This document shows, one piece after another, positions 40,338 to 47,935 of a stretch of 64,000 nucleotides of DNA. The notes beneath the pieces were generated by a model. It ran no database searches. It was not told the DNA's origin and was given only the letters and a program-made list of their open reading frames with translations. The position numbers and the translations under genes are program-made. Source of the DNA: an uncultured Alphaproteobacteria bacterium (GTDB lineage Bacteria > Pseudomonadota > Alphaproteobacteria > Rs-D84); contig CATLAX010000002.1 in the NCBI GenBank assembly GCA_949878575.1, positions 65,378-129,377 on the forward strand, in the 5' to 3' direction. Numbering within the stretch: the stretch's first letter is position 1; each line of letters begins with the position of its first letter.

Positions 40338-40413
40338 GGGGACATAGCTCAGTTGGTAGAGCAAATGACTTTTAATCATTGGGTCCAGGGTTCGAGTCCC
40401 TGTGTCCCCACCA
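40338..40413 (+). tRNA. tRNA-Lys (anticodon TTT)
   Basis: GGGGACATAGCTCAGTTGGTAGAGC... with anticodon loop CUUUUAA and GGTTCGAGTCC T-loop. CCA encoded. Confidence 0.9.
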
Positions 40414-40421
40414 GAATAAAA
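40398..40421 (+). repeat. attL core (direct repeat, overlaps tRNA-Lys 3' end)
   Basis: Exact 24-bp match to 47470-47493. Confidence 0.8.
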
Positions 40422-40548
40422 TTGTTAGAAATCCAACACTTTTGTTGGGTTTTTATTTTTTTGGTTTGAACCACACGAAACACACCAAAGCCTTAGAAAT
40501 CCAACATTTTCGTATTTTCACTTTTGCCAGAAACAAAGGGATACAGAT

Positions 40549-42114
40549 ATGGCAAAAACGTGTAATACAAGGTGTAATACAGACCACAATATATTATTGC
40601 GAAACAACATTTTTTATTATAGGGTTGAATTACCACGAGAAAACGGTAAAAGACGGTTCTTGTGCAAGTCTTTAAAGACATATAATTACTATGAAGCACG
40701 GGAAAAGGCTAAAATTATGGCTGAACAACTGCAAAATTTTGAAGTGCACGAATTCATTAAATCCATAGAATTATTGTGGAATCAGTTAAGTTTTGGCTAC
40801 GAATACCCAAATTTTGGTAAAAATATTTATGGTTTTATGCCGAATACCCCCATACGAACCATTTTGCCAGATTCTAGACCAGAAATTATCAATGGTCTGT
40901 TAGAAAAAGCAGATAAATTAAACCTGATTAAAAATAAGTCTTTGTCTGCACACGAAAAATCCGTTATAAAATTACTGAAAGAAAACAAAGAAAAACTGAT
41001 AGAATTGCAAGAAGATAATAATAAATTATTGGATAAAAATAACCGATTACTTGAAATGCTAATTTCTCATCAGGCCGCGAACACCGTGGCACAACAACCA
41101 AAAGTTGTTAAACATACGGTCGGGGAAATTTTGACATCTATGGTAAAGACGGCAAATAATGAAAAAGCCGAATCCGACCGAAAATATCCTGCAATAAAAA
41201 AACTTATTCAAGATGTCGGACTCGGGCTTGATTCTGATTATATGGATTTTTACAAACCGGAAATCATGCATAAAATTGGAGATTCTGTCCGTAATATGCC
41301 CAATGTAAAAAGTGGCACACAGCGAAAATACATCCAATATGTTATCCAGTTGATAAAGCACGCCCATATTTTGGAACCTGATACATATAAAGAAAATCTG
41401 ATACAAATATTACCAAAATTTGAAAAGACACCGAAATCTCAACAGAAACCGCACATGCCGTATACTGACGACCAGTTGTCGGAAATGTTTGACCCAAAAC
41501 ACGACTTTTTCAAAAAGAATCCCGACCAATTCTGGACAGCAATGATTGCATTGTTTACGGGTTCACGACAAAATGCCGCAATGACCCTGCAATATGGGGA
41601 CGTGCTTAAAAAAGATGGTTTGGATTGTATCCATTTTACTGAAAATCACTCCATTAAACACCTTAAAACAGAAGCCTCTGAACGTATTGTCCCGATAGCA
41701 CAACAATTCTTAAATTTGGGATTTGTAGAATATGTGCGGAACAGACAGGCAAAATTAAAGGCAGCAGATACAGATTTTATATTTCCGAAATGTCAAACCA
41801 GTGGTGGACAGGAAAATAATAAATTTGCAACCCGTGGAATATTAAAATTCTTGTCGGATATTGATATTAAAGATAAAAACGGGGATAAACAGGATTTTCA
41901 TTCTTTCCGTAAAAATGCCAGTTTAAGACTGCAAAAAGTGGGAGTTTTACCAACCTTTATCAATGACATTATTGGTTGGGAAGGCAAAAGCACAATGGAA
42001 CAATCCTATTCCAATCACAGATTACCCGAAATCAAGGAACAGGTGGATAAATTAAACTATGATTTCCTGCAACCGCATTTTGACAAGTGGAAAGAAATAA
42101 TGAAAGGGGTATAA
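40549..42114 (+). CDS. Tyrosine-type site-specific integrase (phage integrase family)
   Basis: C-terminal catalytic signature R...HSFRK...Y (HSFRKNASLRL; ...EQSYSNHRL). Located immediately 3' of the tRNA. The true start may be an internal Met (e.g. MAEQLQ). Confidence 0.8.
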   Translation: MAKTCNTRCNTDHNILLRNNIFYYRVELPRENGKRRFLCKSLKTYNYYEAREKAKIMAEQLQNFEVHEFIKSIELLWNQLSFGYEYPNFGKNIYGFMPNTPIRTILPDSRPEIINGLLEKADKLNLIKNKSLSAHEKSVIKLLKENKEKLIELQEDNNKLLDKNNRLLEMLISHQAANTVAQQPKVVKHTVGEILTSMVKTANNEKAESDRKYPAIKKLIQDVGLGLDSDYMDFYKPEIMHKIGDSVRNMPNVKSGTQRKYIQYVIQLIKHAHILEPDTYKENLIQILPKFEKTPKSQQKPHMPYTDDQLSEMFDPKHDFFKKNPDQFWTAMIALFTGSRQNAAMTLQYGDVLKKDGLDCIHFTENHSIKHLKTEASERIVPIAQQFLNLGFVEYVRNRQAKLKAADTDFIFPKCQTSGGQENNKFATRGILKFLSDIDIKDKNGDKQDFHSFRKNASLRLQKVGVLPTFINDIIGWEGKSTMEQSYSNHRLPEIKEQVDKLNYDFLQPHFDKWKEIMKGV

Positions 42115-42421: not shown

Positions 42422-42943
42422 ATGTTTCTTGTTTTGGCTTTGATATATTTCTTGCCAACAATAATCGCAATATGCAGAAAGTGCAATATTGGGCTTACGT
42501 TATTGGTAAACTTGTTCCTGGGGTGGACATGTATAGGTTGGATTGTTGCGTTGGTTCTGGCATTAAAAGGTACTGAATCCGTCCGAAATCAACCAACCAT
42601 TGTGATAAACAATACAAATGCCGATGGAAATGCAAAAATTCAACAAGACGTGAGAAATATAGCCCAAGACAAATACGCAGATAAAACAGAAAAAAGCATG
42701 CGTGGTGCAAGTCCATTAGCTGTTGGAATATGGTCTGCAATATTGGGAATATTTGGTTTAGCGTGGATTGGAACATTTGACCCAACAATGGGTTTTATCG
42801 CATTACTGGGGTTGGCTGGTTTGGGCTTTGAGGCTTGGGAATGGCTAAAAGTAAAATTTAACGATTCCATTGAACAAGCCGCACAAAAGAAGTCTCAAGA
42901 ACTCAAACAACAATTAAATAAAAAAGGAGCAAAAAATGACTGA
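42422..42943 (+). CDS. Superinfection-immunity (Imm)-like membrane protein
   Basis: The N-terminal YFLPTIIA...NLFLGWTCIGWIVALVLAL matches the Imm_superinfect family pattern. Additional C-terminal TM helices. Confidence 0.45.
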   Translation: MFLVLALIYFLPTIIAICRKCNIGLTLLVNLFLGWTCIGWIVALVLALKGTESVRNQPTIVINNTNADGNAKIQQDVRNIAQDKYADKTEKSMRGASPLAVGIWSAILGIFGLAWIGTFDPTMGFIALLGLAGLGFEAWEWLKVKFNDSIEQAAQKKSQELKQQLNKKGAKND

Positions 42944-43403
42944 AAACAAACCAACAAATATAGCCTTTAATAAAACAATTCTGTATTTTATGGCTATAGG
43001 CTGTATTCTTGTCGCACTGGTTTTATTTTTTAATAGAAACAATGCCGAGTTAAACATGGGAAGCAGTCTTATTTTTTATATAATTTGGGGTTGTATACTA
43101 TTATTTGGATTTGGTGGATTTAAACTGCTGTATAAAACATTTGGTGATAACCAACCTGCAATAGAATTCAATCCAAAAGGAATGATAATACACAGTTTGC
43201 AAAACGAAAAGTTGAACAAATATGTTTTATGGAAAGATGTTGCCGACATAGAAATGGGAGCAAATGGTAAAATCCGTATAAAATATAAAGATACCAACTT
43301 AGACGCAGAGGAAATAACATCGTATTTGTTCAATATCCCCAAACAGGAATTATTCAAAGTTTTATATTCGTATGCAAAACAGTATGGGGATATAAAAAAC
43401 TAA
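42936..43403 (+). CDS. Hypothetical 2-TM membrane protein (island cargo)
   Basis: 155 aa with two N-terminal TM helices and a cytoplasmic domain. Overlaps the preceding gene (ATGA coupling). RBS aaaaggagcaaaaaATG. Confidence 0.45.
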   Translation: MTENKPTNIAFNKTILYFMAIGCILVALVLFFNRNNAELNMGSSLIFYIIWGCILLFGFGGFKLLYKTFGDNQPAIEFNPKGMIIHSLQNEKLNKYVLWKDVADIEMGANGKIRIKYKDTNLDAEEITSYLFNIPKQELFKVLYSYAKQYGDIKN

Positions 43404-43429
43404 GCATATTATAAACAAAGGAGAAAAAT

Positions 43430-43858
43430 ATGTATACAAATAATGCAGCAAAATCAAATTCTGTAATAGGCTGGTTGGCAGCATTCGGATATATTATTGG
43501 TTATGTCCTGCTTTTATTTATAGGCCAAGCCGCTACTTGGATTAGTGTAATTTTATGTGTAGTAGACCGTCAAACCTTAAAAACATACGGTAAACATATT
43601 GCATTGGGTTGGTGTTTGTTACCACCTGTTTATATGTATAAACGTGCCAAAGTGTTGAATGATGGTTTTACAAAATTCTGGGTAAATTTAATAACCGCAA
43701 TCATATTCATTATATTAGCAGTTTATGCCGTGGTTCATACGACATCTTGTATGACGCAAGCATTGCCGTATTTTAATAATAATCACGAAATTGCAGCCCA
43801 GTTCTGTCAATGCACATTGGGTAATTCACCAGAAGAATGTTTGCGAAATTTGTTATAA
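43430..43858 (+). CDS. Hypothetical membrane protein (island cargo)
   Basis: 142 aa with three hydrophobic segments. RBS aaggagaaaaatATG. Confidence 0.45.
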   Translation: MYTNNAAKSNSVIGWLAAFGYIIGYVLLLFIGQAATWISVILCVVDRQTLKTYGKHIALGWCLLPPVYMYKRAKVLNDGFTKFWVNLITAIIFIILAVYAVVHTTSCMTQALPYFNNNHEIAAQFCQCTLGNSPEECLRNLL

Positions 43859-43949
43859 CCAATGTAAGGCAGATGTAAATCTGCCTTTTAAATACTCATT
43901 TTTACCTGGGCGACTGCCATTTGACGAATATATAATTGTATAAAACAAG

Positions 43950-44147
43950 GTGGCAAAAATGAAAATTGCATACGCTAAACAGTCTGGGAATATGGTAAGT
44001 CTTTATGACCCGAATAACCGTGAATATGTCCGTATATCTGGTGAACTGGTGTCTTATACATCTGAATTTGTAATAACCCGTGGCAGTGGGATAAATGGAC
44101 CAAAACACATTTATAATGCCTGTGGTCGGTGGGTTCGTGATATTTAA
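43950..44147 (+). CDS. Small hypothetical protein (island cargo)
   Basis: 65 aa. RBS aaggtggcaaaaATG. Confidence 0.35.
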   Translation: MAKMKIAYAKQSGNMVSLYDPNNREYVRISGELVSYTSEFVITRGSGINGPKHIYNACGRWVRDI

Positions 44148-44650
44148 TGCTGAAATGTCGGCAGGTTGAATAACGTCTCGGAAAATATCAATCTGTCCGT
44201 ATTAAAATGTCCTAGGTTATCCGCCGTGATTTCTTTTGTTATATACCCGTTTAATATATCTGGGGTTCGGTCTATTTCCTGCAAATCAAGAGTCCTGTCG
44301 GTCAATTTTAATTTTTCCGTTATATTATCCAGCGCAGTTTGAATTTCCGTGTCTGTGTATTTTGGAGCCCATAATAACAAATGCAGGTGCCAGACTTTAT
44401 TTGCCCCCAGTTCTGCCGTTCCGACAAAATGCACTGGGTTCCGATTCCAATGACGCCCGACAAGGGATTTTTCAAAATGCCGTATTATTTTATGAAATTT
44501 TGGCAGAGCCCTTTCAAAACTATCCGTATATGCCCCTATCGGTAGTCGGACGGTCAAGAAATGTGAAAATATTTGATTGTTTAACCAGTCTTGCAAGGAT
44601 TCCTGTATTTTCTGGGTTTGTGTCGGGCTGTAATAAGTTATGTTTTTCAT
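44144..44650 (-). CDS. Small rolling-circle replication initiator-like protein (HUH endonuclease motifs)
   Basis: The three ordered RCR motifs are present: FLTVRL (motif I-like), VWHLHLLLW (HUH, motif II) and NGYITKE (YxxK, motif III). Confidence 0.5.
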   Translation of the reverse strand: MKNITYYSPTQTQKIQESLQDWLNNQIFSHFLTVRLPIGAYTDSFERALPKFHKIIRHFEKSLVGRHWNRNPVHFVGTAELGANKVWHLHLLLWAPKYTDTEIQTALDNITEKLKLTDRTLDLQEIDRTPDILNGYITKEITADNLGHFNTDRLIFSETLFNLPTFQH

Positions 44651-45187
44651 TTATTGCTCTTTTTTATTTTAATGAGTCCAGATAAAGCAATTCCCAGTTG
44701 ATAAGGGATTTATATATCTTTATTTTCTCTGCATTCTGGATATAAATTTTTATGGTTAAAATTCATTTATATTTATGTAATCTGGTATAAAACGATACTT
44801 GGCGGAAATTTCGCCATAACGCGAGGTGCCGAAATTCCAGACAAAATCCGTCAATATGGCTATATATGAGCCCACACCAGAGGGATAATGTCGTTAAAAC
44901 ATACCCGAACCCTTACCAGATGGCCTGTCTAGTAAGGGTCGGATATTTTGCACATGCACAATACGAAAAGGCCTTTTTCGTCTGACCCGGGGGAGTATTT
45001 ATTATTTGAGTTCAGAAAGAACCACGATTTTCCCCGTTCTGTATCCCCGGGGCGACGTTTTACCGCTCCGAGGTATATATTAGAACTGTGTTCGTATAAT
45101 TATATTTTTGTGTAAAACTTTTTGTTTTATAAATATTTATAGGGGGAGTATAAATAAAATGGGAAACTGGGAAAGTGGGATTTTCGG

Positions 45188-45214
45188 GTAAAAAAAAGTG
45201 GGGAAATTCCCCAC
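45188..45214 (-). terminator. Rho-independent terminator after helicase gene
   Basis: Perfect palindrome gtggggaa-a-ttccccac followed by a T8 run on the minus strand. Confidence 0.5.
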
Positions 45215-45231
45215 CGTTTTTAATATGTAAT

Positions 45232-47070
45232 TTAATCCGTTGTCGGTAAAAACATTTCTGAAACAAATTTATATAGTCTCGGAGTTCCTTGATATGGCAC
45301 CTGCTTTTTTCGCGCAATATGTGTACCGTCTTTATCTGGCTCAATCCAACCCCATTCTACCAGTTTCTTTTTTGCCCGAGATGTGGGAAACCCTTTCAAA
45401 ATGGTGTTTTCCAAGACTTCTGGATAAACCCAGTAAATACATTTATTCCCAAGTTTACCTTCAAAATATCCGGCCATATCGTATACCTTATCGTCCGTAC
45501 CGCAGTATGTAATGTCCTTGAATTTGGAAAATCCATTACATTCAAAAAATAGCCGTACTTGCCGTTTTAAACGCTCCGTTTCCGTCAGTCGGTCAGGATT
45601 ATCTCGCCATTCATTAAACAGTTGTAAAGCAGCATCTTTTGCAACACCGAACTCCCAACCTGTTATTCCCCAATGGGTTGCCAATTCCCCCGCAAAACCA
45701 ACCAGTGCAAACCGCTTAAACGCCCGATTTTCGGCAGACTCCATATCGGTTGGTAATTTGGCTCGTAATGGCTCAAAGAATCTCTTAAAACTAGCCTGAA
45801 CTTCATCTTTGACAACAACCAAGGATTCCAAAAACTGTACTAATGGAACCCCATAAAATTTTCCAGTGCATTCATTAAGGTGTTCGGCAAATTTTCCCCC
45901 GTTTTCAAAACCGTGCAAATTGTCAAAAATACCGCTGATAGAATTTTGTGATACCGCAGGAATACTGATGAAACGAATTTCCTGCCCGTCCTTAATCGTC
46001 TTTCTAGATTCTGCAATATGGGTTTGAAAATCGATTTCGCCAGATGACAGAAATAAAGTAATCCATTTTTTTACGGCTCGTTTAGTCCACGTATGGTTAA
46101 AACGCCCTTTACCTTGCCCATTTGCAAGCATATACGCAACATTCCCCGTTATGGAACTAGGTAATTGTCCAACTTCGTCCAATACCAACAATGTATCGTT
46201 GTGAGATTCCGCCGTACTTTCTAGTGCATTATCTGTCGTCCGCCAAGAGTGCATATAATCCCTGTTTCCGCATACTGAGGTTGCCACTTTTAGCAAAGTC
46301 GTTTTTCCTGTGGAAGTCCGTCCATAAATATGAAAACCACCACCCTCTATATCACAAAGACGTAGCAAAGGTGCTGCAAAGGCACAACTTACCCCGAAAA
46401 TCAATCTGGAATTCCCAGTACAATACTGACCGATTTGGCTTTTCCATTCGTCCAAAGTTCCTTGGCAGATGTAACCGTTCGCATCGTCTGAATTGAAATA
46501 TAACTTGGCATTCTGCGTTCCTATAATTTTGGTTGGCAGAACGAAATTCTTTTCCGCCCACCCAGTGCGTTTGGTTTCCAAAATGATTTCCTGGGGTTTA
46601 AAATTGGTTATATATTCGCACAAACGGTTTTGTTCACATTTCAAGACGAAAAAGCCTTCCAGTAATAACTCCGATATAACCTCATTACCTCTAGCCAGGG
46701 AGTCCCTTGGTATATACTTTTGGCAGAGTTTGTCTTCAAAATTCTTAAATTCGACCAAAACACCCCACGATTTTGCGTCCTTGGTTTTGGTCAGTTTGGA
46801 CACATTGATATAATTTGAAACCCGACTATACACCACATTATTCGGTCCCTCGCTATCGGGGCTTTCAATTGACTCTACATGGAATAATCCATAATCCCGT
46901 AAGATAAAGCCGCCTGGAGTTCCTGGTAGCTGACGCAAACTTTCCTGTTCAAACTGTTCATAACTTACAGAAAATCTATTTAATTGCTTTAAAAACTCCT
47001 GTTCTTTATCGGACGTTCTGGGGTCATCTTGTGCTTGGTCTAATAAATCTTCAATTTTTGAATCGCTCAT
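45232..47070 (-). CDS. SF3 helicase/primase-associated ATPase (P4/D5-type replicative protein)
   Basis: Walker A GRTSTGKTT, Walker B LLVLDEVGQL, downstream motif C. 612 aa with an N-terminal domain of unknown type. Confidence 0.65.
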   Translation of the reverse strand: MSDSKIEDLLDQAQDDPRTSDKEQEFLKQLNRFSVSYEQFEQESLRQLPGTPGGFILRDYGLFHVESIESPDSEGPNNVVYSRVSNYINVSKLTKTKDAKSWGVLVEFKNFEDKLCQKYIPRDSLARGNEVISELLLEGFFVLKCEQNRLCEYITNFKPQEIILETKRTGWAEKNFVLPTKIIGTQNAKLYFNSDDANGYICQGTLDEWKSQIGQYCTGNSRLIFGVSCAFAAPLLRLCDIEGGGFHIYGRTSTGKTTLLKVATSVCGNRDYMHSWRTTDNALESTAESHNDTLLVLDEVGQLPSSITGNVAYMLANGQGKGRFNHTWTKRAVKKWITLFLSSGEIDFQTHIAESRKTIKDGQEIRFISIPAVSQNSISGIFDNLHGFENGGKFAEHLNECTGKFYGVPLVQFLESLVVVKDEVQASFKRFFEPLRAKLPTDMESAENRAFKRFALVGFAGELATHWGITGWEFGVAKDAALQLFNEWRDNPDRLTETERLKRQVRLFFECNGFSKFKDITYCGTDDKVYDMAGYFEGKLGNKCIYWVYPEVLENTILKGFPTSRAKKKLVEWGWIEPDKDGTHIARKKQVPYQGTPRLYKFVSEMFLPTTD

Positions 47071-47374
47071 TTTATCACCTATATAATTTTAAAAGTTTGC
47101 AAAAAACACGTCCATTTTTTTATAAATGGAAAGTATTTTGCGGTTTAATTTTCGGAAATAGGAGGCCACCCTAATGCCTTACGCAAACACTAACCCCGTT
47201 TTTTTGTGGTCGCAATAAATAAATTTCATTTTTACGAAGAAATTTTCAATTGTTTGAAAAATTCCCGAAATATCAAAGGGTTTATAATAATGCACTTAAC
47301 CGACTCAATGGAAAATAATTTATAAAAATACCCGTTTACATTGTCTGAAAATGGTATACAATAGAATTGCAAAA

Positions 47375-47396
47375 GTGTAATACAAGGTGTAATACA
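47375..47396 (+). repeat. Copy of 22-bp sequence gtgtaatacaaggtgtaataca (also at 40560-40581 at integrase 5' end)
   Basis: Exact 22-bp duplicate, itself an internal direct repeat of gtgtaataca. Confidence 0.6.
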
Positions 47397-47469
47397 TTTT
47401 AACAATTTTGATGGTAGGAATCTGGGAAAAGGTTAAAATCCTAGGGTTTTATAAACTTATGGTTTGTTC

Positions 47470-47493
47470 CCCTGTGTCCCCACCAGAATAAAA
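47470..47493 (+). repeat. attR core (direct repeat of tRNA-Lys 3' end)
   Basis: Exact 24-bp match to 40398-40421. Confidence 0.8.
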
Positions 47494-47536: not shown

Positions 47537-47935
47537 ATGTACAAATACGAATTTAAAAAACGCTGTGCCCAGGTTAAATATACATGGCGGCATAAAATCG
47601 CATTTTTGCGTGTTGAAAAAGGCCTGACCGGACACAATACAATCCGCGGGTATCTGCATGATACGGATAAACTGGTGCTGTATTGGATACCATGGATGTC
47701 AAAGGCCAACGTGCATAAATTTCATCGCGCACATTCGCGCCACCATCTGGAAAACAGCATTAGAAAAAGTTACAAAGACTATGTCGCAATGATAATTGAC
47801 TGGGAATGCGCACGCGCAACAAAACCAGACAAACCGTTGAACGCATATGAAACGCTGATGCGATTTTATCCACAGCATCGCGATGCAATCCTGCCTGTAT
47901 TACAGCGATTGTTGCCGGAACAAATACAGCGATAA
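47537..47935 (+). CDS. Hypothetical protein (possible small HD-motif protein)
   Basis: 132 aa. The H...HD...K spacing in GHNTIRGYLHDTDK gives a weak HD-like motif. RBS aaaggaatacaatATG. Confidence 0.35.
   Translation: MYKYEFKKRCAQVKYTWRHKIAFLRVEKGLTGHNTIRGYLHDTDKLVLYWIPWMSKANVHKFHRAHSRHHLENSIRKSYKDYVAMIIDWECARATKPDKPLNAYETLMRFYPQHRDAILPVLQRLLPEQIQR

What the first reader, a model, noticed from the sequence alone, without database searches (positions are those of the whole stretch)
44144..47070. Rolling-circle Rep split into separate genes: 168-aa HUH-motif protein plus stand-alone SF3 helicase
The 168-aa protein carries the three rolling-circle initiator motifs in the correct order (FLTVRL, HLHLLL, YITKE). 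The adjacent 612-aa protein has SF3 helicase Walker A/B/C motifs. In CRESS-DNA, parvo-like and many plasmid Reps these two domains are fused in a single polypeptide. Here they are separate, co-oriented genes divided by a 580-bp AT-rich region. That region contains repeated tggga(a) elements and a perfect palindrome gtggggaaattccccac (45198-45214), a plausible origin region. This suggests a transitional or previously undescribed replicon architecture within an integrated element.
Basis: partly seen in the sequence, partly recalled or inferred. Interest (0 to 1): 0.65.

Follow-up and report, generated by a model that had tools for sequence, protein, structure and literature searches.

The report
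Island nickase and helicase, separate modules
A 7-kb mobile island inserted at a tRNA-Lys gene carries a real but undescribed small DNA-nicking (HUH) protein with its own conserved, structured control region. Next to it lies an unrelated, swappable helicase with its own repeat-type origin, so this is two neighbouring modules and not one replication protein split in two.

Summary

- **The 168-aa protein is a genuine stand-alone HUH/Tyr nickase.** H88, H90 and Y136 are invariant in 83 relatives. The AlphaFold model has pLDDT 94, and its best structural matches are viral and plasmid Rep nuclease domains.
- **The 612-aa protein is a DUF927 helicase.** This is the family of the self-loading replicative helicases Cch and SaPI Rep.
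- **The "split Rep" reading is not supported.**
  - In related tRNA-Lys islands, the constant unit is the HUH gene, about 430 nt of conserved upstream DNA with a covarying hairpin, and a convergent 62-65-aa gene.
  - The gene in front of that unit is interchangeable: DUF927, an endonuclease-VII-like gene, or a 277-aa plus 156-aa pair.
  - Twice, nearly identical HUH modules (about 95%) sit beside helicases only about 50% identical.
  - The tggga repeats and the palindrome follow the helicase, not the nickase. This matches the iteron origin found just downstream of SaPI/SCC helicase genes. In this window the palindrome also has the form of that gene's terminator.
- **No canonical nick motif is present** in the intergenic region.
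- **Best reading:** an integrative element with two separate cis/trans pairs, a new variant of known island replication and mobilisation modules. Interest is moderate.

The parts
40338..40413 (+). tRNA-Lys (UUU), the integration target. Its 3' end forms attL.
   Evidence: ARAGORN; Rfam tRNA 77.5 bits.
40398..40421 (.). attL core: 24-nt exact direct repeat CCCTGTGTCCCCACCAGAATAAAA.
   Evidence: the repeat finder family D1; sequence read.
40549..42114 (+). Tyrosine integrase, N-terminal DUF6538 type.
   Evidence: Pfam Phage_integrase 1.9e-10 and PHROG 1. It is 47-63% identical to the integrases of related islands L001, L002, L006, L021 and L022.
42422..43858 (+). Variable cargo: a superinfection-immunity-like protein and two small membrane proteins.
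   Evidence: Pfam Imm_superinfect 9.4e-12. In related islands this position holds methyltransferases, HNH genes and others.
43950..44147 (+). Conserved 65-aa partner gene (called s65 here). It is convergent with the HUH gene and overlaps its 3' end by 4 nt. Function unknown.
   Evidence: Found next to the HUH gene in every related locus that covers that side, at 50-95% identity. It matches no family. Only 4 database clusters exist.
44144..44650 (-). 168-aa stand-alone HUH/Tyr (Y1) endonuclease of the Rep type. Motifs: FLTVRL, WHLHLLL (H88, H90) and Y136-ITK.
44651..45090 (-). Conserved non-coding region that always travels with the HUH gene. It is the candidate cis site (double-strand origin, single-strand origin or oriT) of the nickase.
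   Evidence: Sequence blocks are conserved in islands whose Rep is only 44-78% identical. It is 96-99% identical to L011 while the neighbouring helicase region is 45-79%.
45072..45090 (-). Box 0, CACAGTTCTAATATATACC: the upstream edge of the HUH-associated conserved DNA.
   Evidence: AGTTCTA(W)A is conserved in the window, L002, L006, L020, L021 and L022, whatever gene lies upstream.
44964..44991 (-). Box 1, CCCGGGTCAGACGAAAAAGGCCTTTTCG: the most widely conserved block. It contains a short inverted repeat.
   Evidence: Conserved in the window, L004, L006, L007, L020, L021 and L022.
44901..44946 (-). Long imperfect hairpin with a 7-9-nt loop. The window's MFE fold pairs 19 bp; the 14 pairs of the consensus helix are the ones tested by covariation. 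G·T wobbles fall on the rep-sense strand only.
   Evidence: RNAalifold and pair counts. In the hairpin helix, 9 of 14 pairs have compensatory changes. Over the two helices tested together, 86.6% of cells are paired against 39-52% when partners are slid, and 0 of 500 shuffles reach this.
44885..44895 (-). Box 3, AACGACATTAT: near-invariant single-stranded block just 3' of the hairpin. It is one candidate nick site.
   Evidence: Conserved in all lineages aligned. The assignment as nick site is inference only.
45096..45141 (.). AT-rich stretch (16% GC measured over 45086-45141): a candidate DNA-unwinding element.
   Evidence: Equivalent AT-rich stretches follow the iterons in L011, L021 and L022.
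45143..45215 (-). Iteron cluster of the helicase. On the gene's strand it has three TCCCA(N) copies at an 8-nt period, CCCC-core variants (TCCCC), and one inverted copy.
   Evidence: densest cluster in 64 kb. Analogous TTCCCAC or TTCCCG repeats lie directly after the DUF927 stop codon in L011, L021 and L022.
45189..45215 (-). The palindrome (an inverted iteron pair) followed by T8. It has the form of an intrinsic terminator of the DUF927 gene, 17 nt after its stop codon.
   Evidence: scan_promoters_terminators: 8-bp stem, 5 G-C pairs, 3-nt loop, T-run.
45232..47070 (-). 612-aa DUF927 helicase of the Cch/SaPI-Rep family. It has no primase domain.
   Evidence: Pfam DUF927 9.3e-72. PHROG 1139 is matched only over the helicase part, profile positions 379-875 of 895. 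NCBIfam Cch1 1.4e-17. PDB 8tch 4.9e-14 and 5dgk 8.3e-14.
47371..47396 (.). Arm-type repeat AAAAGTGTAATACAAGGTGTAATACA. A second copy lies at 40556-40581.
   Evidence: the repeat finder family D2, 96% identical. Conserved in related islands.
47470..47493 (.). attR core, identical to attL.

Best explanation
The region belongs to a 7.1-kb integrative element at tRNA-Lys. The element carries two independent protein-plus-site pairs side by side.

**Pair 1, the conserved core of this island family**
- It comprises a small single-tyrosine HUH nickase (168 aa), about 430 nt of conserved and structured DNA upstream of its gene, and a conserved convergent 65-aa partner gene.
- Inferred mechanism: after the island excises as a circle, the nickase cuts one strand at a site inside the conserved region. 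That region offers single-stranded or hairpin DNA on the rep-sense strand.
- The nickase stays linked to the 5' end through Y136. The free 3'-OH primes rolling-circle-type synthesis, with a host helicase doing the unwinding.
- This synthesis would serve to maintain or amplify the excised circle, to export a single strand, or both.

**Pair 2, an exchangeable accessory**
- It comprises a DUF927 self-loading replicative helicase and its own origin, placed immediately after its stop codon. The origin has TCCCA-type iterons and a 16%-GC stretch.
- The arrangement matches SaPI Rep and SCCmec Cch/Cch2.

**What is shown and what is inferred**
- Shown: family membership, motif conservation, predicted fold, modular inheritance, hairpin covariation, and iteron position.
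- Inferred: the nicking, the nick position, the replication modes, and the biological purpose.
For: **The HUH protein is genuine**
- Invariant H88, H90 and Y136 in 83 relatives; PF23343 matched in 70 of 83.
- AlphaFold model with pLDDT 94 and pTM 0.87, and beta-alpha-beta-beta-alpha-beta topology followed by a Tyr-bearing helix.

**It is the core of the island family**
- DNA homology between islands is confined to attL plus integrase, 43896-44992, and the attR arm.
- The 65-aa partner gene is always present.
- The upstream DNA is conserved down to 44% Rep identity.
- The hairpin shows covariation and strand-specific G·T pairs.

**It is independent of the helicase**
-.

**The helicase has its own origin**
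- for the protein; for the iterons.
- The iterons differ between L021 and L022, whose helicases are 48.5% identical while their HUH modules are 95% identical.
- Literature model: PMC9371898 and PMC7581432.

**Precedent**
- Tyrosine-integrase islands that encode RCR-initiator-like proteins for maintenance, transfer or both: PMC5704250.
- An HUH initiator without a helicase domain that is thought to recruit a helicase: PMC5714925.
Against: - No nick site can be named. None of the canonical motifs of CRESS, pC194/phiX, pT181, pMV158 or Ff origins occurs.
- Fold searches also return many generic ferredoxin-like folds at similar Z. The fold alone is therefore not discriminating.
- The protein scores 27.7 bits against a PF23343 cut-off of 27.8.
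- No sigma-70-type promoter was found for the HUH gene in the intergenic region.
- DUF927 does recur upstream of the HUH gene in two distant Rep lineages (window/L011 and L021/L022). Some functional link is therefore not excluded.
- A second, inverted iteron set on the far side of the AT-rich stretch, as in SaPI origins, could not be assigned with confidence.
- No primase is encoded in the island.
- The covarying hairpin could act in RNA, as an mRNA leader, instead of in DNA.
Confidence: 0.55

Rival explanations
1. **The first reader's model: a two-gene Rep.** The HUH nickase and the DUF927 helicase act together at one origin in the intergenic region. The nickase provides the 3'-OH and the island's own helicase unwinds. 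This would be the functional equivalent of the fused HUH-SF3 Rep of CRESS-DNA viruses and parvoviruses.
For: - The genes are adjacent and co-oriented in the window, L011/L012 and L021/L022.
- The helicase lacks a primase domain and the island encodes none, so a nick-derived primer would be useful.
- HUH enzymes need single-stranded DNA. The helicase's AT-rich, iteron-flanked region abuts box 0 of the HUH-associated DNA.
Against: - The helicase is replaced by non-helicase genes in close relatives of the HUH gene.
- Rep and helicase histories disagree twice: 95% against 50% identity. A sharp breakpoint lies between the genes.
- The iterons track the helicase, not the nickase.
- The helicase belongs to the self-loading Cch/SaPIbov1-Rep family, not the SF3 clade fused to viral Reps (PMC7581432).
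- None of the 10 longer family members scanned has a Pfam helicase domain.
Confidence: 0.12
2. **Mobilisation only.** The 168-aa protein is a non-canonical relaxase and the conserved structured region is an oriT. The island would be an integrative mobilisable element that borrows a conjugative pore. Vegetative replication of the circle would be left to whatever sits in the variable slot, here DUF927.
For: - Streptococcal integrative mobilisable elements with tyrosine integrases commonly encode small RCR-initiator-like proteins (Rep_2, PHA00330, Viral_Rep, Rep_trans) as putative relaxases (PMC5704250).
- A hairpin next to a conserved single-stranded block is typical of oriT.
- A constant HUH module beside a variable replication slot fits a mobilisation-plus-maintenance layout.
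Against: - No coupling protein (TcpA or VirD4) and no other transfer gene lies in the island.
- The review notes that RCR-type relaxases are so far tied to TcpA-type coupling proteins of Firmicutes. The relatives here come from Alphaproteobacteria and Rickettsiales MAGs.
- The protein has no homolog in 72,556 plasmids.
- An endonuclease VII is an odd replication module for the slot.
Confidence: 0.2
3. **Satellite of a single-stranded-DNA phage.** The HUH protein, whose closest structural matches include microvirus replication initiators and proteins with the inovirus/plectrovirus ORF2/G2P domain, rolls off single-stranded copies of the excised island. The upstream hairpins would serve as complementary-strand origin and packaging signal, and the copies would be packaged by a helper filamentous phage.
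For: - PF23343 is the ORF2/G2P domain. The named best BFVD matches include microvirus replication initiators and an ORF2/G2P-domain protein.
- A structured, strand-specific intergenic region directly upstream of the rep gene mirrors the layout of the Ff phage intergenic region (own knowledge).
- The cargo is defence-type: Sie, methyltransferases and HNH genes. This is usual for satellites.
Against: - No morphogenesis, packaging or helper-sensing gene was recognised.
- There is no hit in IMG/VR viral contigs or in INPHARED phages.
- At 7.1 kb the island is too large for a microvirus capsid (own knowledge).
- No helper is known.
Confidence: 0.08
4. **Nested HUH transposon.** The 1.1-kb unit (non-coding DNA, HUH gene and 65-aa gene) is an IS200/IS605- or IS91-like element that inserted into these islands on its own.
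For: The unit is sharply bounded (43896-44992/45050) and nearly identical between islands that differ on both sides. The protein is small and has a single tyrosine, like the TnpA of IS200/IS605.
Against: - It always occupies the same position and orientation within one island family, never elsewhere.
- It does not match Y1_Tnp or any transposase family.
- No TnpB gene and no terminal subterminal hairpins at both ends were seen.
- Conservation reaches 44% Rep identity with the island context retained.
Confidence: 0.03

Closest known systems
SaPI Rep / SCCmec Cch and Cch2 self-loading helicase replicons
   Same: - A DUF927 helicase with sequence similarity to SaPI and Cch structures.
- Short 5-6-nt direct repeats immediately downstream of the helicase ORF, next to an AT-rich stretch.
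- The repeats differ when the helicase differs.
- It resides in a small integrase-bearing island.
   Different: - The relatives' hosts are Alphaproteobacteria, not staphylococci.
- There is no primase partner in the island.
- The second, inverted iteron set is not clearly present.
- The helicase module is optional in this island family.
- Origin binding has not been tested.
Integrative and mobilisable elements of streptococci that encode RCR-initiator-like proteins (Rep_2, PHA00330, Viral_Rep, MobT/Rep_trans)
   Same: A tyrosine integrase, integration at the 3' end of a conserved gene, and a small stand-alone HUH-type initiator or relaxase thought to serve transfer, maintenance of the excised circle, or both (PMC5704250).
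   Different: - The HUH subfamily differs: borderline PF23343, absent from PLSDB and INPHARED.
- There is no TcpA coupling protein.
- The relatives' hosts are proteobacterial MAGs.
- A conserved 62-65-aa partner gene and a roughly 430-nt structured non-coding block are present.
Rolling-circle plasmid and ssDNA-phage initiators without a helicase domain (pMV158 RepB; ORF2/G2P-domain proteins of inoviruses and plectroviruses; microvirus replication initiators; SIRV1 ORF119)
   Same: HUH plus a single Tyr (YxxK), a nuclease-only protein that relies on a helicase supplied in trans, and structured origin DNA beside the rep gene (PMC5714925).
   Different: At 168 aa it is far shorter than gpII or microvirus initiators. 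It is embedded in a chromosomal island. None of the known nick sequences is present.
CRESS-DNA virus, parvovirus and pCRESS-plasmid Rep (HUH fused to an SF3 helicase)
   Same: The HUH and YxxK motifs. The E-x7-HxH spacing aligns weakly with the parvovirus NS1 nuclease (E = 0.13, not significant).
   Different: - There is no fusion in the family members checked.
- The neighbouring helicase belongs to a different family (DUF927).
- The helicase is not co-inherited with the HUH gene.
- There is no nonanucleotide stem-loop.

Membership tests
HUH endonuclease superfamily (Rep-type, single Tyr) | His-hydrophobic-His metal-binding motif conserved across homologs | tested here: met
   H88 and H90 are invariant in 83 sequences at 25-96% identity. 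E80 is conserved in at least 90% and is a candidate third ligand.
HUH endonuclease superfamily (Rep-type, single Tyr) | Catalytic Tyr on a helix C-terminal to HUH (YxxK) | tested here: met
   Y136 is invariant and K139 is conserved in at least 90%. The model places 130-138 in a helix.
HUH endonuclease superfamily (Rep-type, single Tyr) | Antiparallel beta-sheet flanked by helices, similar to solved Rep nuclease domains | tested here: inconclusive
HUH endonuclease superfamily (Rep-type, single Tyr) | Site-specific ssDNA cleavage with a 5'-phosphotyrosine link | not testable with these tools
   This needs biochemistry.
Pfam PF23343 (REP_ORF2-G2P) | Score at or above the gathering threshold (27.8 bits) | tested here: inconclusive
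   The window protein scores 27.7 bits, E = 3.3e-6. 70 of 83 relatives match at E <= 1e-3. A few relatives checked individually exceed the threshold.
Split or two-gene version of the fused HUH-SF3 Rep (CRESS/parvovirus type) | The helicase partner belongs to the SF3 clade found fused to HUH Reps | tested here: not met
   The partner is DUF927, of the Cch/SaPIbov1-Rep family (PMC7581432).
Split or two-gene version of the fused HUH-SF3 Rep (CRESS/parvovirus type) | The two genes are co-inherited and co-diverge | tested here: not met
   The helicase is absent from L002, L004, L006, L007, L019 and L020. Rep is about 95% identical where the helicase is about 50%, in two pairs. A breakpoint lies at about 45050.
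Split or two-gene version of the fused HUH-SF3 Rep (CRESS/parvovirus type) | Stem-loop origin with a conserved nonanucleotide (NANTATTAC) | tested here: not met
   There is no match on either strand of 44651-45231.
SaPI Rep / Cch-type self-loading helicase replicon | DUF927-type hexameric helicase core | tested here: met
   Pfam 9.3e-72; PDB 8tch and 5dgk at about 1e-13. The oligomeric state was not tested.
SaPI Rep / Cch-type self-loading helicase replicon | Penta- or hexanucleotide iterons immediately downstream of the helicase ORF | tested here: met
   TCCCA-type repeats at an 8-nt period lie within 90 nt of the stop codon. This is the densest cluster in the window. The same holds in L011, L021 and L022.
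SaPI Rep / Cch-type self-loading helicase replicon | AT-rich region flanked on both sides by iterons in opposite orientation | tested here: inconclusive
   An AT-rich stretch (16% GC) is present. Inverted GGGGA copies lie at 45031 and 45044, but they fall in DNA shared with the HUH module, and L021 and L022 have no clear counterpart.
SaPI Rep / Cch-type self-loading helicase replicon | Sequence-specific origin binding by a C-terminal winged-helix domain | not tested
   No structure prediction was made for the 612-aa protein. Binding needs EMSA.
Integrative and mobilisable element with an RCR-type relaxase | Site-specific recombinase with att repeats at a conserved target | tested here: met
   An integrase and a 24-nt repeat at the tRNA-Lys 3' end.
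Integrative and mobilisable element with an RCR-type relaxase | Coupling protein (TcpA or VirD4) or a demonstrated helper conjugative element | tested here: not met
   No such gene lies among the island ORFs. A helper cannot be assessed.
IS200/IS605 or IS91 HUH transposon | Match to a transposase family, and occurrence at multiple unrelated sites | tested here: not met
   There is no Y1_Tnp or other transposase hit. The unit always sits in the same place within one island family.

The most novel reading that the evidence does not exclude
These tRNA-Lys islands may be a previously unrecognised family of minimal mobile elements. Their close relatives come from uncultured Alphaproteobacteria, including gut and Rickettsiales-like MAGs. 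They would be built on a 1.1-kb rolling-circle core: a 168-aa HUH initiator, a structured origin and a 62-65-aa partner gene. The exchangeable gene in front of the origin (DUF927 helicase, endonuclease VII, or the 277-aa plus 156-aa pair) would be an alternative origin-opening or DNA-processing partner of the nickase. In the DUF927 variants, nickase and helicase would then cooperate in trans, as the fused viral Reps do in cis.
Probability: 0.13. Interest if true: 0.7.

Novelty: new variant of a known kind. Interest (0 to 1): 0.42.

Why it matters
- It removes a tempting but unsupported evolutionary story, that of a transitional split Rep.
- In its place is a concrete, testable picture: one small island with two adjacent and separately inherited protein-plus-site pairs.
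- The HUH family is uncharacterised.
  - About 160 clusters at 50% identity are found among 1.8 billion proteins.
  - It is absent from plasmid and phage reference sets and sits just below the Pfam cut-off.
- At 168 aa it is among the smallest complete Rep-type nickases. With its defined, covarying target region it is a compact candidate for HUH-tag or ssDNA-tool work.
- It is also a handle on how small islands of uncultured Alphaproteobacteria replicate or move.
- The swappable slot next to a fixed origin is a clean natural experiment in module exchange.

Tried and rejected
- **Collection scans.** Scans of genome, metagenome and viral contig collections with the close-family alignment A1 found nothing new. 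Searches gave nothing, and only re-found L008. The wider alignments A2 and A6 had no stretch conserved enough to scan with. The intermediate alignment A7 gave four MAG loci.
- **Reference plasmids and phages.** tblastn of the HUH protein against PLSDB plasmids and INPHARED phages gave no match.
- **Fold library.** The afdb50 library was unavailable.
- **PDB profile search.** It gave only non-significant parvovirus NS1 matches. The E/HxH residues align with the NS1 metal site, but the aligned Tyr is not the NS1 catalytic Tyr, so this was not used as evidence.
- **Rfam.** No RNA family matched in the intergenic region.
- **Canonical nick motifs.** None was found.
- **First hairpin alignment.** It used wrong coordinates and gave no structure. 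It was redone after locating the boxes.
- **Other family members.** Context look-ups for P0009, P0014 and P0020 returned contigs too short to use.
- **Literature.** Searches for PF23343 and for PDB entry 8TCH found nothing relevant.
- **Rejected readings.** The palindrome as an HUH nick hairpin was rejected, because it lies outside the HUH-associated conserved DNA, directly after the helicase stop codon, and the matching hairpin in L011 sits in the helicase-linked divergent DNA and differs in sequence. The idea that the conserved non-coding block encodes a protein was rejected, because indels and compensatory stem changes are present.

Full report
**1. What is in the sequence**

They are separated by 581 nt.

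They lie in a 7.1-kb island:
- tRNA-Lys is at 40338-40413.
- A 24-nt exact direct repeat (CCCTGTGTCCCCACCAGAATAAAA) sits at 40398-40421 and again at 47470-47493.
- A tyrosine integrase is at 40549-42114.
- GC falls from about 50% in the flanks to about 37% inside the island.

Between the integrase and the region of interest lies cargo: a superinfection-immunity-like protein and small membrane proteins. A 65-aa ORF (43950-44147, +) converges on the 168-aa gene and overlaps its end by 4 nt.

**2. The 168-aa protein is a real HUH nickase**

- Pfam gives PF23343 (the ORF2/G2P replication-protein domain) at 27.7 bits against a cut-off of 27.8. PHROGs and NCBIfam give nothing.
- A word-indexed search found only six relatives.
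- An exhaustive profile search found 160 cluster representatives at E <= 1e-3. Most are stand-alone proteins of 155-250 aa.
- In an 83-sequence alignment (25-96% identity), H88, H90 and Y136 are invariant. K139, E80, W68 and F75 are conserved in at least 90%. 70 of the 83 match PF23343.
- With that alignment AlphaFold gives pLDDT 94 and pTM 0.87. The topology is beta-alpha-beta-beta-alpha-beta followed by a helix carrying Y136.
- Against predicted viral structures, every hit among the top matches that carries a name is a viral replication protein: microvirus replication initiators, an ORF2/G2P-domain protein, a "replication gene A protein" and parvovirus NS proteins.

The fold is compatible with HUH, and the His and Tyr residues are conserved.

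**3. The 612-aa protein is a DUF927 helicase**

- It matches DUF927 at 9.3e-72.
- It matches only the helicase part of phage primase-helicase profiles (PHROG 1139, profile positions 379-875 of 895).
- It matches the SCCmec Cch1 model weakly.
- It matches the solved structures 8tch (a SaPI protein) and 5dgk (Cch) at about 1e-13.
- The literature describes DUF927/Cch as related to SaPIbov1 Rep and MCM-like. It describes SaPI Reps and Cch2 as self-loading helicases that bind 5-6-nt iterons lying directly downstream of their own gene (PMC7581432; PMC9371898; PMC5862659).

**4. The intergenic region is two things, not one**

*Helicase side*

Read on the genes' strand, the helicase stop codon is followed after 17 nt by GGTGGGGAATTTCCCCAC and T8. 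This fits an intrinsic terminator. Then come TCCCAC-TT-TCCCAG-TT-TCCCAT, and then a stretch of 16% GC. The motif cluster is the densest in the 64-kb window.

The same layout follows the DUF927 stop codon in three other islands:
- L011: GTGGG...CCCAC, TCCCAC, TCCCAG.
- L021: TTCCCACA, TACCCACA, TTCCCACA.
- L022: TTTCCG, TTCCCG, TTCCCG.

*Nickase side*

From about 45090 down to the start codon of the 168-aa gene, the DNA is conserved in all related islands, whatever gene lies upstream.
- Conserved blocks are CACAGTTCTA, CCCGGGT-(A-run)-GCCTT, AACGACATTAT and others.
- Between the blocks lies a long hairpin at 44901-44946, with 19 bp in the window's MFE fold. Its sequence changes while its pairing is kept.
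  - In the hairpin helix, 9 of 14 pairs show compensatory changes.
  - Over the two helices tested together, 86.6% of cells are paired, against 39-52% when partners are slid.
  - 0 of 500 shuffles reach the observed values.
- The G·T wobbles fall on the rep-sense strand. That strand also folds slightly better than its complement (z -2.6 against -1.7).
- The structure therefore acts in a single strand, either DNA or RNA. It is not a duplex palindrome.

No canonical nick motif of CRESS viruses, pC194/phiX174, pT181, pMV158 or Ff is present. Rfam finds nothing there.

**5. Comparative evidence against a split Rep**

DNA homology between the window island and its relatives is confined to three segments:
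- the attL and integrase region;
- 43896-44992;
- the attR arm at 47317-47491.

The 65-aa gene accompanies the HUH gene in every locus that covers that side, at 50-95% identity.

The gene just upstream of the conserved non-coding block varies:

| Upstream gene | Loci |
|---|---|
| DUF927 helicase | window, L011/L012, L021/L022 |
| Endonuclease-VII-like | L004, L019 |
| 277-aa plus 156-aa pair, no confident family match | L002, L006, L020 |
| Other small ORFs | L007 |
| Integrase plus HTH_17 | L014 |

These alternatives do not follow the Rep tree.

Where DUF927 is present, its history differs from that of the nickase:
- Window versus L011: Rep 95.8% identical, helicase 51.9%.
- L021 versus L022: Rep 94.9% identical, helicase 48.5%.
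- A sliding comparison of the window with L011 shows 96-99% identity from about 45050 to about 43900. Across the helicase region it shows 45-79%.
- The iterons differ between L021 and L022 along with the helicase, while the HUH-associated DNA stays the same.

None of the 10 longer family members scanned carries a Pfam helicase domain.

**6. Most likely mechanism**

*Shown*
- A conserved catalytic HUH/Tyr protein.
- A co-inherited, structured, strand-specific non-coding region beside its gene.
- A separately inherited helicase with iterons at the position expected for its origin.

*Inferred*
- After excision the nickase cuts the rep-sense strand within the conserved region and primes rolling-circle-type synthesis with a host helicase. 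pMV158 RepB likewise has no helicase domain and is thought to recruit one (PMC5714925).
- The product serves maintenance or amplification of the circle, single-strand export, or both. MobT proteins of Tn916 and ICEBs1 are reported to do both (PMC5704250).
- The DUF927 helicase, where present, gives the circle an independent origin of the SaPI/SCC type.

*Open questions*
- Whether the nickase works for replication, for mobilisation or for both.
- Where it cuts.
- What the 65-aa protein does.

**7. Comparison with known systems and novelty**

- The helicase module behaves like a SaPI/SCC replicon and passes the testable membership features. The inverted second iteron set is the exception and remains inconclusive.
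- The nickase module behaves like the RCR-initiator or relaxase modules of streptococcal integrative mobilisable elements, and like helicase-less plasmid and phage initiators.
- The nickase is a separate, undescribed subfamily. It is absent from PLSDB and INPHARED and was found only in metagenomic contigs and MAGs. The MAGs with organism labels are Alphaproteobacteria, Rickettsiales and one uncultured proteobacterium.
- It fails all three tested features of a split CRESS/parvovirus-type Rep.

I rate it a new variant of a known kind, with moderate interest.

*Residual novel reading (about 13%).* The swappable upstream gene may be a functional partner of the nickase. In the DUF927 islands the helicase would then open the origin for nicking. 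The recurrence of DUF927 in two distant Rep lineages, and the direct abutment of its AT-rich region with the nickase's conserved DNA, keep this alive.

**8. Limits**

- The host of the window was not identified directly.
- No promoter for the nickase gene was recognised.
- The covariation rests on eight sequences from about five lineages.
- All functional statements are inferences from sequence.

Noticed in passing
window 43950-44147 (+): A 65-aa ORF converges on the HUH gene with a 4-nt tail overlap. It is conserved next to the HUH gene in every related island (50-95% identity), sometimes better than the HUH protein itself. It matches no family, and only 4 database clusters exist.
   Followed up: partly
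window 40556-40581 and 47371-47396: A 26-nt repeat, AAA(C/A)GTGTAATACAAGGTGTAATACA, contains two GTGTAATACA units. One copy lies near each att site, which suggests integrase arm-type sites. The left copy overlaps the first codons of the called integrase ORF, so the true start may lie further downstream.
   Followed up: partly
window 40425-40445 and 40493-40513: A 21-nt direct repeat, TTAGAAATCCAACA(C/T)TTT(T/C)GT, occurs twice 68 nt apart between attL and the integrase gene. Its function is unknown.
   Followed up: no
window 42422-43858; L001, L002, L004, L011: The stretch between the integrase and the 65-aa gene is a cargo hot spot. It holds a superinfection-immunity-like protein and membrane proteins here, and N6/N4 methyltransferases, an HNH protein or a D12 methyltransferase in related islands. 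This suggests defence cargo.
   Followed up: partly
window 44989-44998 and 45142-45151: An exact 10-nt repeat, GGGGGAGTAT (+ strand), occurs 153 nt apart. The copies bracket the AT-rich stretch and box 0, so one lies in each of the two modules.
   Followed up: no
L002 422-1920; L006 839-2349; L020 6347-8476: A recurrent alternative to the helicase is a 277-aa protein (weak winged-helix Trans_reg_C hit, E = 0.009) with a 156-160-aa protein. The smaller gene is duplicated in L020. Neither has a confident family match. They could be a different replication or regulatory module.
   Followed up: partly
L014 277-2531: A very compact arrangement of integrase, HTH_17 (excisionase-like) gene and 170-aa HUH gene lies next to a KAP NTPase gene. 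A second integrase lies a few kb away. It may be a minimal member of the element class.
   Followed up: no
P0021: A 1649-aa protein carries the HUH domain at its extreme C-terminus (residues 1509-1646). The rest has no recognisable Pfam domain.
   Followed up: no
window 47537-47935 (+): A 132-aa ORF lies immediately outside attR. It has no match in Pfam, PHROGs or NCBIfam.
   Followed up: no
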